Assembly (NCBI RefSeq): GCF_041248615.1 | Contig: NZ_CP158426.1 | From: Escherichia coli | GTDB lineage: Bacteria > Pseudomonadota > Gammaproteobacteria > Enterobacterales > Enterobacteriaceae | Reading direction: 5' to 3' (one strand) | DNA length: 64,000 nucleotides | Shown here: one piece after another, positions 30,001 through 33,000 of the stretch | How the letters are laid out: each line of letters opens with the position of its first letter | Numbering within the stretch: position 1 is the stretch's first letter | Position numbers: made by a program

Positions 30001-33000
30001 ACTTTCTTTACCCAATGCCATTGCACAGTAATACTCCGCGTAGATGTGAATATCTTCAACCAGGCGATCTACGCCTTTTTCAGCAACACTCTGGCTGCGG
30101 GCATGGAGTTTAAATGCCTCATAGACTTCATCTGTCCGAGGGATCTCCCCCGTTTTTACCGTCAGATAATGACGCATAAAACTGTCAAAATATTCGCTGT
30201 AACCTTGCTGACCAAAAGCGACTTCCATGGGTCGCCAGTGATCTTCATACAACCGGGTTTGATGCTCTGGTTCGAGGCCCATCAGAATAAAATTGCGCAC
30301 CAGATCGGCCTGACTTAACGCCTTACCGGTAGAGTTCATACTTTCAAAAATCAGTTGCGGATTATCCTGACCACGATTAAGCGCCACATCGACAATTAAT
30401 AATTTTGCTAACCCACGACATAAGGGAATCAAGTCATCCCCGAGTTTGGCAATTTGTTCATCAAAGAAAGTAAAGTTTTCCATTATTCGATGGGAATAGT
30501 TTTCTGGCATTGGTCTTTGTTTTATTAACGCCAGCAAACTGTCTTTATCAGTCTCGGTCAGCAGTAATTTAAATCCTTTCTCGCCGGACTCATAAGGATT
30601 GAGTAAATAATAATTACGCAATTTCATTGCTGAAAAGCCATCAAAAACTTCGTCTTCGCCAAGATGACGCGATAAAGCCTCAATCAGCAACATTGCGGTC
30701 GTCAGCCTTTGTTGACCATCAATGACCAGTAACGGAGAAATACCAGAAACCTGATACAACCCCTGCTCAATATAAACAACCGAACCGATAAAATGCGCTG
30801 ATATATCGTCACGCTTTCCGGCACGAATGATGTCGTCCCAAAGTTGCCGACATTGTTGTTCTGTCCATGAATAAGTCCGTTGATAAATGGGAATAACAAA
30901 CTGCTGCGAACGTTTTAAAAAATCGAGTAGGCGGGCTTCTGTAGCTTTCATTCTGACGTCTTTCCGTGAAGCGATGATTTCGCAATAATAACCACTTCCT
31001 TGTGGAGGTTATAGAGAAATCCTGTTTATCCGCGACGAACTGCCCCCTCACTCCACATCCTCCCTGCGTAACCCAATATCCCTCAACCGCTCATCACTCA
31101 TCTGCTGTAACACCCGCCGGGCCTGCATTTGCCGCCGCCAACGCCTCACTGCCTGCCAGAGTTGCACAAGTCCAATAAACGGTGCTTTAGCTTTGTTTTC
31201 GTGAAATTCCATCTGCTGCCTCCTCATCTTTCAGAGGCTTCATCATCCGCCTTCTGGCAGTTCACAATACAGATGCAAATATTAGTTTTATTTAACATAC
31301 AGACAGGTTAAAACAGCATCTGCATCCGGTTTTTTAGCCTCATCTGTACCGGTTTTTCTCTCTGTATGGTCCAAAGAAGGAATACAGCATGACGCGTTAT
31401 CAACATCTGGCGACTTTGCTTGCCGAGCGGATTGAGCAAGGGCTGTATCGTCACGGGGAGAAATTGCCGTCGGTGCGCAGCTTAAGTCAGGAGCACGGCG
31501 TCAGCATCAGCACCGTGCAGCAGGCGTACCAGACGCTGGAGACGATGAAGCTCATCACTCCGCAGCCGCGTTCGGGTTATTTTGTCGCACAACGTAAAGC
31601 CCAGCCGCCAGTACCACCAATGACGCGTCCGGTGCAGCGCCCGGTGGAAATTACCCAGTGGGATCAGGTGCTGGATATGCTGGAGGCGCATAGCGACAGT
31701 TCCATTGTACCGTTAAGCAAAAGCACGCCGGATGTCGAAACGCCCAGCCTGAAACCGCTGTGGCGTGAGCTAAGCCGGGTGGTGCAGCATAATCTGCAAA
31801 CCGTTCTCGGTTATGACTTGTTAGCCGGTCAGCGAGTGTTGCGAGAGCAGATTGCCCGCCTGATGCTCGACAGCGGCTCGGTGGTCACTGCCGATGACAT
31901 CATCATCACCAGCGGCTGCCATAACTCGATGTCGCTGGCGTTAATGGCGGTGTGTAAACCGGGCGATATTGTCGCGGTCGAATCCCCCTGTTATTACGGT
32001 TCGATGCAGATGCTGCGCGGCATGGGCGTGAAAGTGATTGAAATCCCAACCGATCCAGAAACAGGCATCAGCGTTGAAGCGCTGGAACTGGCGCTGGAAC
32101 AGTGGCCGATTAAAGGCATCATTCTGGTGCCAAACTGTAATAATCCGCTGGGATTTATTATGCCGGACGCGCGCAAACGGGCCGTTCTCTCGCTCGCTCA
32201 GCGTCATGATATTGTGATTTTTGAAGATGATGTCTACGGCGAACTGGCGACGGAGTATCCGCGCCCGCGGACCATTCATTCCTGGGATATCGACGGGCGA
32301 GTGCTACTGTGCAGCTCGTTCAGTAAAAGTATTGCACCTGGCCTGCGCGTGGGTTGGGTCGCACCGGGGCGTTATCACGATAAACTGATGCATATGAAAT
32401 ACGCCATCAGCAGCTTTAATGTGCCGTCCACGCAAATGGCGGCGGCAACGTTTGTGCTGGAAGGTCACTATCATCGCCATATCCGGCGGATGCGGCAGAT
32501 CTATCAGCGCAATCTGGCACTTTATACCTGCTGGATACGGGAATATTTTCCCTGCGAAATCTGTATTACGCGTCCGAAAGGAGGATTTTTACTGTGGATA
32601 GAATTGCCTGAACAGGTCGATATGGTCTGCGTCGCGCGGCAGCTGTGCCGCATGAAAATCCAGGTGGCGGCAGGCTCGATTTTCTCGGCTTCCGGCAAAT
32701 ACCGTAATTGTCTGCGCATCAACTGCGCTTTGCCGCTCAGCGAAACCTATCGCGAAGCACTGAAGCAAATTGGCGAGGCCGTGTATCGGGCAATAGAATA
32801 ATTTCGAATAAGTGGCGAGGCCCCTGATTTACTCTCACGAATAGCGTGTGACTCGTTTTATCTTTGCAGGGTCATCGCCACGTTCCAGCATGGCTTAGGC
32901 AAAGTGCGCTTTGTTCATGCCGGATGCCATGTGAACGCCTTACCAGGTCTACAAAATATTAAAAGTTCAATATATTTAATGGATTATGTAGACCTGATAA

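What the first reader, a model, noticed from the sequence alone, without database searches (positions are those of the whole stretch)
31048..31212. Small DUF1127 gene (yjiS) invisible to the ORF track
A 54-aa minus-strand ORF with a good RBS (ggagg) and the C-terminal DIGLRRED signature of DUF1127 lies between the GmrSD-like gene and yjiR. It is below the 60-aa cut-off of the supplied track. The overlapping plus-strand 60-aa track ORF (31129..31311) is probably spurious.
Basis: partly seen in the sequence, partly recalled or inferred. Interest (0 to 1): 0.3.

Follow-up and report, generated by a model that had tools for sequence, protein, structure and literature searches.

The report
Known small gene yjiS (DUF1127)
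The 54-codon minus-strand reading frame is the already annotated and recently characterised E. coli small-protein gene yjiS, missed only because the ORF track ignored anything under 60 codons, so the finding is correct but ordinary.

Summary
The observation and the interpretation both hold. Window 31048..31212 (minus strand) is an intact 54-codon ORF. An AGGAGG Shine-Dalgarno sequence lies 6 nt before its ATG. It matches Pfam PF06568 (DUF1127/YjiS-like) over the whole model at twice the gathering score. RefSeq annotates yjiS at exactly these coordinates in an E. coli genome that is 100% identical over window 30850..31500. The exact protein is already public on at least 1000 contigs.

The frame is under purifying selection: dN/dS is about 0.08 against the K-12 allele, and synonymous changes far exceed non-synonymous ones across Citrobacter, Klebsiella and two unidentified enterobacterial contigs. 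All of these keep the gene divergent from yjiR across a 176-177 bp spacer. The overlapping plus-strand 60-aa ORF and a 59-aa upstream start are not conserved and are rejected.

Two 2025 papers give the function. E. coli YjiS binds the sensor kinase PhoR and restrains pst expression. Salmonella YjiS is a peripheral inner-membrane protein that interacts with SsrA/B.

In passing, the yjiS-yjiR spacer carries five T[AG]CAGA boxes, four of them invariant across genera. This fits a 2016 comparative-genomics prediction that the MocR-type regulator YjiR controls this gene.

Novelty: already known. Interest: low.

The parts
31048..31212 (-). yjiS coding sequence, 54 codons plus a TGA stop. It encodes a small arginine-rich DUF1127 protein (10 Arg in 54 residues, predicted pI 11.1).
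   Evidence: ORF list; Pfam PF06568 at 46.6 bits; RefSeq yjiS at identical coordinates; purifying selection; exact protein public as YjiS; composition.
31219..31224 (-). Shine-Dalgarno sequence AGGAGG, 6 nt upstream of the yjiS ATG.
   Evidence: Read directly from the sequence. The GGAGG/GGGGG core is conserved in all six aligned orthologous spacers.
31225..31227 (-). Upstream in-frame ATG that would give a 59-aa product. Judged not to be the start codon.
   Evidence: It directly abuts the SD. In the K-12-type allele and in Klebsiella a TAG follows three codons later, and Citrobacter has no ATG at this position. M1-E5 of the 54-aa form are invariant across 23 homologues.
31213..31388 (.). 176-bp divergent yjiS-yjiR spacer holding five T[AG]CAGA boxes. 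On the plus strand these read ATACAGA at 31267-31273 and 31297-31303, TCTGCA at 31319-31324, TCTGTAC at 31343-31349 and TCTGTAT at 31361-31367. They are candidate operators for the MocR-type regulator YjiR, and the promoters must also lie in this spacer.
   Evidence: Repeats. Four TACAGA copies against 0.055 expected, and this is the only such cluster in the 64-kb window. Box columns are invariant at 26 of 30 positions against 59 of 146 outside the boxes. An RNAP-sigma70 genomic SELEX site is reported in this spacer (PMC3946193). The YjiR regulog with a COG5457 target was predicted in PMC5320631.
31389..32801 (+). yjiR, a 470-aa MocR/GabR-type regulator (GntR wHTH domain plus aminotransferase-like domain), divergent neighbour of yjiS.
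   Evidence: ORF list; RefSeq annotation; GntR plus Aminotran_1_2 Pfam families on the syntenic neighbours in other genera.
31129..31311 (+). 60-aa TTG-initiated ORF antisense to yjiS. Judged spurious.
   Evidence: No Pfam hit; not annotated in RefSeq; start, frame and stop not conserved outside E. coli.
28858..30951 (-). 697-aa DUF262/GmrSD-type type IV restriction gene, the first gene of the variable immigration control region. It lies 96 nt downstream of yjiS on the same strand. It is context, not part of yjiS.
   Evidence: ORF list; RefSeq annotation of the equivalent ORF in ST2747, which has the same 2094-nt length; no terminator-like site in 30800..31500.

Best explanation
The feature is the E. 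coli gene yjiS. It encodes a 54-residue, arginine-rich DUF1127 protein and is translated from ATG 31212 using the AGGAGG Shine-Dalgarno sequence.

Shown here: the ORF, its ribosome-binding site, its family membership, its orthology and synteny, and purifying selection on this frame.

Taken from the literature, not tested here: YjiS is a cytoplasmic small protein that associates peripherally with the inner membrane and binds sensor histidine kinases. In E. coli it binds PhoR and keeps the Pho regulon (pstS) and phosphate uptake in check. In Salmonella it interacts with SsrA/B and is made only under low-phosphate, SPI-2-inducing conditions.

Inferred: the hydrophobic PFIGLVQLW stretch provides the membrane or kinase contact, and the following Arg-rich helix provides the electrostatic binding surface. 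Transcription starts in the 176-bp spacer shared with the divergent yjiR gene and is probably controlled by YjiR through the conserved T[AG]CAGA boxes.

My confidence that this is a real yjiS gene is about 0.98. My confidence that kinase damping is its main mode of action in E. coli is about 0.6.
For: Identity:
- ORF and SD.
- PF06568 at E = 2.8e-12, full model length.
- RefSeq yjiS at the same coordinates in a genome 100% identical over the 651-bp query, and in K-12-type genomes.
- The exact sequence is public as 'YjiS (DUF1127 family)' on at least 1000 contigs.
- 151 homologues found; the 23 aligned (22 homologues plus the query) are 53-54 aa with an invariant N-terminus and core.

Selection:
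- Against K-12 there are 8 synonymous and 3 non-synonymous changes, dN/dS about 0.08.
- Between genera pS is 0.53-1.1 and pN is 0.13-0.23.

Synteny:
- The gene is divergent from a GntR/aminotransferase regulator across 176-177 bp in Citrobacter, Klebsiella and two unidentified enterobacterial contigs.

Function (literature):
- An E. coli yjiS mutant has raised pstS transcript and faster phosphate uptake. YjiS and PhoR interact in a two-hybrid assay and on a Far-Western blot. E. coli YjiS complements the Agrobacterium triple DUF1127 mutant (PMC12501420).
- Salmonella YjiS is translated (ribosome profiling and western blot), sits in the inner-membrane fraction but is released by salt, and pulls down SsrA/B (PMC11707872).

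Regulation:
- Box enrichment and conservation.
- Published YjiR regulog prediction with a COG5457 target.
Against: - No expression or translation data exist for this particular strain.
- No sigma-70 consensus promoter passed the simple scan in the spacer.
- The AlphaFold2 model is only moderately confident (mean pLDDT 66.5) and shows one long helix, residues 13-45, rather than a defined fold.
- In the E. coli two-hybrid test, YjiS and PhoR interacted in only one fusion orientation.
- In Salmonella no single Arg or DIGL substitution abolished function, so the binding mode is undefined.
- Other DUF1127 proteins bind RNA.
- yjiS is full-length in only 3736 of 5426 complete E. coli genomes, so it is dispensable.
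- YjiR control is a prediction with no binding data.
Confidence: 0.88

Rival explanations
1. YjiS acts mainly as an RNA-binding protein, like Rhodobacter CcaF1, affecting RNA maturation or stability rather than sensor kinases.
For: It has the same Pfam domain and a very high arginine content (10 of 54 residues, pI 11.1). CcaF1 is a documented RNA binder and can substitute for the Agrobacterium DUF1127 proteins (PMC8034643 listed; discussion in PMC12501420).
Against: The authors of the PhoR paper state that there is no evidence for RNA interaction by Salmonella YjiS. It fractionates with the inner membrane, and its pulled-down partners are inner-membrane proteins. Enterobacterial YjiS proteins form a separate clade from the alphaproteobacterial ones. 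No sRNA genes follow yjiS here, unlike ccaF1, and Rfam finds only chance sub-threshold hits.
Confidence: 0.1
2. The real product is the 59-aa form that starts at the upstream ATG 31227. Some GenBank records annotate it this way.
For: The in-frame ATG exists in this allele. 59-aa versions are deposited for some E. coli and Shigella records.
Against: The ATG directly abuts the SD and has no SD of its own. The K-12-type allele and Klebsiella have an in-frame TAG between the two starts, and Citrobacter has no ATG there. MEFHE is invariant as the N-terminus across genera. RefSeq uses the 54-aa start.
Confidence: 0.02
3. The plus-strand 60-aa ORF 31129..31311 is the functional gene, or a second overlapping gene.
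For: It is open in both E. coli alleles examined.
Against: It has a TTG start, no Pfam hit and no annotation. In L005 and L010 the start codon is lost, and L005, L007 and L010 carry in-frame stops. It has 9 amino-acid changes in 60 between two E. coli alleles, whereas the substitution pattern fits the opposite strand's codon positions. Half of it lies in the promoter spacer.
Confidence: 0.01
4. The ORF is a chance open frame in intergenic DNA at the edge of the immigration control region and is not expressed.
For: It is short. The consensus scan found no promoter or terminator. The gene is absent or truncated in about 31% of complete E. coli genomes.
Against: There is a strong Pfam hit, clear purifying selection, conservation of length and synteny across genera, and published mutant phenotypes and protein detection for the orthologues.
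Confidence: 0.01

Closest known systems
E. coli K-12 YjiS (b4341)
   Same: Same gene at the same locus, divergent from yjiR and marking the yjiS edge of the immigration control region. Length is 54 aa and 51 of 54 residues are identical.
   Different: Three conservative substitutions (K7R, A31T, R44K). The DNA downstream of the stop codon differs because this strain carries a DUF262/GmrSD, symE and EcoAI-type hsd cassette where K-12 has yjiT..mcrBC.
Salmonella Typhimurium YjiS (PMC11707872)
   Same: A 54-aa DUF1127 protein with an arginine-rich domain and a DIGL motif. It is the orthologue by name and locus according to that paper.
   Different: I did not have the Salmonella sequence, so identity was not measured here. 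Its described role (a timer of escape from macrophages through SsrA/B) depends on SPI-2, which commensal E. coli lacks.
Agrobacterium tumefaciens small DUF1127 proteins SDP1-3 (PMC12501420)
   Same: Same Pfam domain. They bind PhoR and repress pst genes, and E. coli YjiS complements the triple mutant.
   Different: The paper reports only 24% homology to SDP1. Agrobacterium has several paralogues, whereas E. coli is reported to have one.
Rhodobacter sphaeroides CcaF1 (PMC8034643)
   Same: A DUF1127 small protein that is arginine-rich.
   Different: It is 71 aa, is co-transcribed with sRNAs, and has documented RNA-binding activity. None of this is evident for yjiS here.
MgrB and SafA (small-protein modulators of the sensor kinase PhoQ)
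   Same: Works alike: a small protein that binds a histidine kinase and tunes its output (discussed).
   Different: These are unrelated in sequence. MgrB and SafA act through periplasmic contacts with PhoQ, whereas YjiS has no predicted transmembrane segment and is released from the membrane by salt.

Membership tests
DUF1127 / YjiS-like (Pfam PF06568) | Matches the Pfam HMM above the curated gathering score. | tested here: met
   46.6 bits against a cut-off of 23.3, E = 2.8e-12, residues 18-54 matching model positions 1-37 of 37.
DUF1127 / YjiS-like (Pfam PF06568) | Conserved DIGL motif near the C-terminus. | tested here: met
   D45-I46-G47-L48 are present. D45, G47 and L48 are invariant in 23 homologues. 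The motif is named in PMC11707872.
DUF1127 / YjiS-like (Pfam PF06568) | A small protein with unusually high arginine content (family mean about 14%). | tested here: met
   54 aa with 10 Arg (18.5%) and pI 11.1. The family figure comes from PMC12501420.
E. coli yjiS orthologue group | High identity to K-12 YjiS and the same chromosomal position, divergent from yjiR at the edge of the immigration control region. | tested here: met
   51 of 54 residues identical to the K-12-type allele. RefSeq gene name and coordinates agree. The immigration control region is described as flanked by yjiS and yjiA.
E. coli yjiS orthologue group | The protein is actually made. | not testable with these tools
   Only indirect support is available: purifying selection, ribosome profiling and western blot for the Salmonella orthologue, and a mutant phenotype in E. 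coli.
Sensor-kinase-binding small proteins (functional class) | Direct binding to a histidine kinase (PhoR) with an effect on its regulon. | not testable with these tools
   Reported for E. coli YjiS in PMC12501420. Not tested for this allele, which differs from K-12 at three conservative positions.
YjiR (MocR-type) regulon member | Divergent from, or adjacent to, the regulator gene, with conserved repeated operator-like motifs containing a TGT core. | tested here: met
   The divergent arrangement is conserved in four further loci. There are five T[AG]CAGA/TCTG[CT]A boxes, four of them invariant across genera. The TGT-core rule and the YjiR-COG5457 regulog come from PMC5320631.
YjiR (MocR-type) regulon member | The regulator binds the operator and changes transcription. 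| not testable with these tools
   I found no experimental data in the searched literature.

The most novel reading that the evidence does not exclude
The most novel reading still open concerns the PLP-dependent, aminotransferase-like regulator YjiR. It may directly switch yjiS on or off through the five-box T[AG]CAGA array. If so, an unidentified amino-compound signal would be relayed through a 54-aa protein to the PhoR kinase and the phosphate regulon. The two genes would then form a dispensable two-gene module that many E. coli lineages have lost. The regulatory half was predicted computationally in 2016. The link to PhoR output is my inference.
Probability: 0.35. Interest if true: 0.3.

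Novelty: already known. Interest (0 to 1): 0.07.

Why it matters
The main value is quality control. The result shows that a 60-aa cut-off hides genuine, functionally characterised small genes, and that a reader working from raw sequence can recover one. Biologically, yjiS is the reported sole DUF1127 gene of E. coli and a recently described modulator of the PhoR kinase, so any annotation of this window should include it. Nothing about this copy departs from what is published.

Tried and rejected
- NCBIfam gave no model hit for the protein, so only Pfam names the family.
- A PDB sequence search found no solved relative; the best hits had E = 0.43 and 9.4 and are chance.
- AlphaFold2 on the 23-sequence enterobacterial alignment gave one helix (residues 13-45) at mean pLDDT 66.5. 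That is too low-confidence and too featureless for a fold search, so none was run.
- The promoter and terminator consensus scan found nothing in 30800..31500.
- Rfam at E <= 1 gave only sub-threshold archaeal C/D snoRNA hits of 16-21 bits against gathering scores of 45-54, which are chance.
- I suspected a yjiS pseudogene in O157:H7 strain SS17 because its annotation is split. The cause is N characters in that record, not a mutation.
- I first treated the box array in the spacer as possibly unreported. A 2016 paper already lists a YjiR regulog with a COG5457 target in Enterobacteriales.
- I did not run the large genome or metagenome scans or the 1.84-billion-protein search. Four loci from other genera obtained through cheaper look-ups already answered the conservation question.
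- I could not retrieve the Salmonella YjiS sequence, so identity to it is not stated.

Full report
**Observation**

Window 31048..31212 on the minus strand is an open frame of 54 codons ending in TGA (31050..31048). The mechanical ORF list extends it to 31227, giving 59 aa, because a second in-frame ATG lies five codons upstream. AGGAGG occupies 31224..31219 and is separated from the ATG at 31212 by six bases, which is an ideal Shine-Dalgarno spacing. The product is MEFHENKAKAPFIGLVQLWQAVRRWRRQMQARRVLQQMSDERLRDIGLRREDVE. It has 10 arginines and a predicted pI of 11.1. On one side is a 697-aa DUF262/GmrSD-type ORF (28858..30951, minus). On the other is yjiR (31389..32801, plus).

**Identity**

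- The protein matches Pfam PF06568 (DUF1127, now also called YjiS-like) over the whole 37-position model at 46.6 bits. The gathering score is 23.3 and E = 2.8e-12. NCBIfam has no model for it.
- A 651-bp stretch around the ORF is 100% identical to E. coli strain ST2747. RefSeq places 'yjiS: DUF1127 domain-containing protein' there at locus positions 6199..6363, which map exactly to window 31048..31212.
- K-12-type genomes carry the same 165-nt gene.
- The exact 54-aa sequence is already in public collections on at least 1000 contigs under the name YjiS/DUF1127.
- The window is therefore E. coli, and the ORF is the annotated gene yjiS.

**Is the frame under selection?**

A protein search returned 151 homologues. 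Those listed come from Escherichia, Citrobacter and Klebsiella. An alignment of 23 of them (22 homologues plus the query) shows invariant M1-E5, W25, Q37-E41, L43, D45, G47, L48 and R50.

I fetched DNA for orthologues from Citrobacter (L005), Klebsiella (L007) and two unidentified enterobacterial contigs (L008, L010). Nei-Gojobori counts are as follows:

| Comparison | Result |
|---|---|
| Window vs K-12 allele | 8 synonymous, 3 non-synonymous changes; dN/dS about 0.08 |
| Between genera | pS 0.53-1.1, pN 0.13-0.23 |
| Variable columns by codon position 1 / 2 / 3 | 25 / 19 / 44 |

This is the signature of a translated frame.

**Start codon**

The 59-aa alternative is rejected for three reasons.

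- The upstream ATG directly abuts the Shine-Dalgarno sequence.
- The K-12-type allele and Klebsiella have a TAG between the two candidate starts.
- Citrobacter has no ATG at that position, while MEFHE is invariant as the N-terminus.

Some older GenBank records do annotate the 59-aa form.

**The overlapping plus-strand ORF (31129..31311)**

- It starts with TTG, has no Pfam hit and is not annotated in RefSeq.
- Outside E. coli its TTG start is lost in L005 and L010, and L005, L007 and L010 carry in-frame stops.
- Between the two E. coli alleles it differs at 9 of 60 residues, against 3 of 54 for YjiS.
- Its upstream half lies in the yjiS-yjiR promoter spacer.

**How it works (from the literature, not tested here)**

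Remme et al. 2025 (PMC12501420) report the following for E. coli.

- E. coli lacking yjiS, described as the sole DUF1127 gene of the species, has raised pstS transcript and takes up phosphate faster.
- YjiS interacts with PhoR in a bacterial two-hybrid assay, in one fusion orientation only, and on Far-Western blots.
- E. coli YjiS restores pstS repression in an Agrobacterium triple DUF1127 mutant.

Venturini et al. 2025 (PMC11707872) report the following for the 54-aa Salmonella YjiS.

- It is transcribed and translated only in SPI-2-inducing minimal medium, shown by northern blot, ribosome profiling and western blot.
- It fractionates with the inner membrane but is released by high salt.
- It has no predicted transmembrane segment but has a non-polar face in its N-terminal helix.
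- It pulls down the SsrA/B two-component system.
- No single Arg or DIGL substitution abolishes its infection phenotype.

The most likely mechanism is therefore a peripheral, cytoplasmic-face small protein that binds sensor kinases and damps their output. In E. coli the target is PhoR.

My own contributions here are minor. The hydrophobic PFIGLVQLW stretch is followed by an amphipathic, Arg-rich segment, with peak hydrophobic moment around residues 12-31. An AlphaFold2 model of modest confidence (pLDDT 66.5) predicts one continuous helix over residues 13-45. No solved structure of a relative exists.

The main rival is an RNA-binding role, as shown for Rhodobacter CcaF1. The authors themselves leave open a moonlighting function.

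**Regulation and context**

In every locus examined, yjiS is divergent from a 470-480-aa GntR plus aminotransferase-domain (MocR-type) regulator across 176-177 bp. In L006 the regulator is called as two split genes.

The spacer in the window contains five T[AG]CAGA boxes. Two are in one orientation (31267, 31297) and three in the other (31319, 31343, 31361).

- Four exact TACAGA copies occur where 0.055 are expected. This is the only such cluster in the 64-kb window.
- In the six-sequence alignment, 26 of 30 box columns are invariant against 59 of 146 other spacer columns. Fisher p = 4e-6, with the caveat that the boxes were defined on the E. coli sequence.
- The boxes contain the TGT core typical of GntR/MocR operators.

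This is not new. Suvorova and Rodionov 2016 (PMC5320631) list a 'YjiR - Enterobacteriales' regulog whose target is COG5457. They remark that the YjiS-related COG5457 gene is frequent in MocR regulons, including in Rhizobiales and Rhodobacterales. Genomic SELEX also placed an RNAP-sigma70 site in this spacer. I found no experimental work on YjiR binding.

**Edge of the variable region**

Homology to K-12-type genomes stops between 0 and 11 nt past the yjiS stop codon. Both alleles share TGAGGGGG and then diverge. This agrees with the published description of yjiS as a framework gene bounding the immigration control region.

In Citrobacter and L008 an apparent GC-rich hairpin followed by a T-run lies downstream of yjiS, read by eye and not scanned. 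In all four non-E. coli loci a marR, membrane-fusion-protein and DUF2955 operon follows. In this window no terminator-like site is found, and the DUF262/GmrSD-type gene begins 96 nt downstream on the same strand.

**Distribution**

- yjiS is full-length in 3736 of 5426 complete E. coli genomes.
- It is partial in about 420 genomes. In the one example examined (L011), a deletion removed the 5' half of yjiS together with yjiR and mdtM, leaving a 26-codon 'hypothetical protein'.
- It is undetectable in 1267 genomes.

**Verdict**

The gene is already annotated and has been functionally studied, and this copy differs from K-12 YjiS only by three conservative substitutions. Novelty is 'already known' and interest is low. 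The only loose end with some scientific value is the untested YjiR-to-yjiS-to-PhoR relay.

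Noticed in passing
window 31213..31388: The yjiS-yjiR spacer holds five T[AG]CAGA boxes in two orientations. Four are invariant across E. coli, Citrobacter, Klebsiella and two unidentified enterobacterial contigs, while the rest of the spacer has diverged. They are probably YjiR (MocR-type) operators. This agrees with a 2016 computational regulog, but I found no experimental test.
   Followed up: yes
window 31037..31050, compared with L002: Homology to K-12-type genomes ends within 0-11 nt of the yjiS stop codon (shared TGAGGGGG, then unrelated DNA). The boundary of the variable immigration control region therefore abuts the gene. No terminator-like site follows yjiS here, whereas Citrobacter and L008 show an apparent hairpin plus T-run (read by eye), and all four non-E. 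coli loci have a marR, membrane-fusion-protein and DUF2955 operon downstream.
   Followed up: partly
L011 4999..5079 (E. coli S1-SRB-02-B) and the genome counts: About 420 complete E. coli genomes match only part of yjiS. In the example examined, the C-terminal half remains as a 26-codon 'hypothetical protein' after a deletion that also removed yjiR and mdtM and left an Rpn-family gene adjacent. A further 1267 genomes have no match. The yjiS-yjiR pair is therefore dispensable and was deleted together in the example examined.
   Followed up: partly
window 28858..30951; L001 4009..6102: The DUF262/GmrSD-type gene is one intact 697-aa ORF in the window, and the equivalent ST2747 stretch translates as an uninterrupted 697-aa frame of the same length. 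RefSeq nevertheless annotates it there as a 388-aa CDS plus a 'partial' pseudogene fragment. This looks like an annotation artefact rather than a disrupted gene.
   Followed up: partly
L003 1697..1895 (E. coli O157:H7 SS17): yjiS appears split into two 'hypothetical protein' calls in this record. The cause is N characters in the deposited sequence, not a frameshift.
   Followed up: yes
window 33044..33988 (minus): The Rpn-family (recombination-promoting nuclease / Transposase_31) gene next to yjiR is an intact 314-aa ORF here, whereas the K-12-type record marks it as a pseudogene with an internal stop (L002 8003..8923).
   Followed up: no
window 31210..31251 (minus): Sub-threshold Rfam hits to archaeal C/D-box snoRNA families (16-21 bits against gathering scores of 45-54) fall over the yjiS 5' leader. 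They are chance matches in a purine-rich stretch.
   Followed up: yes
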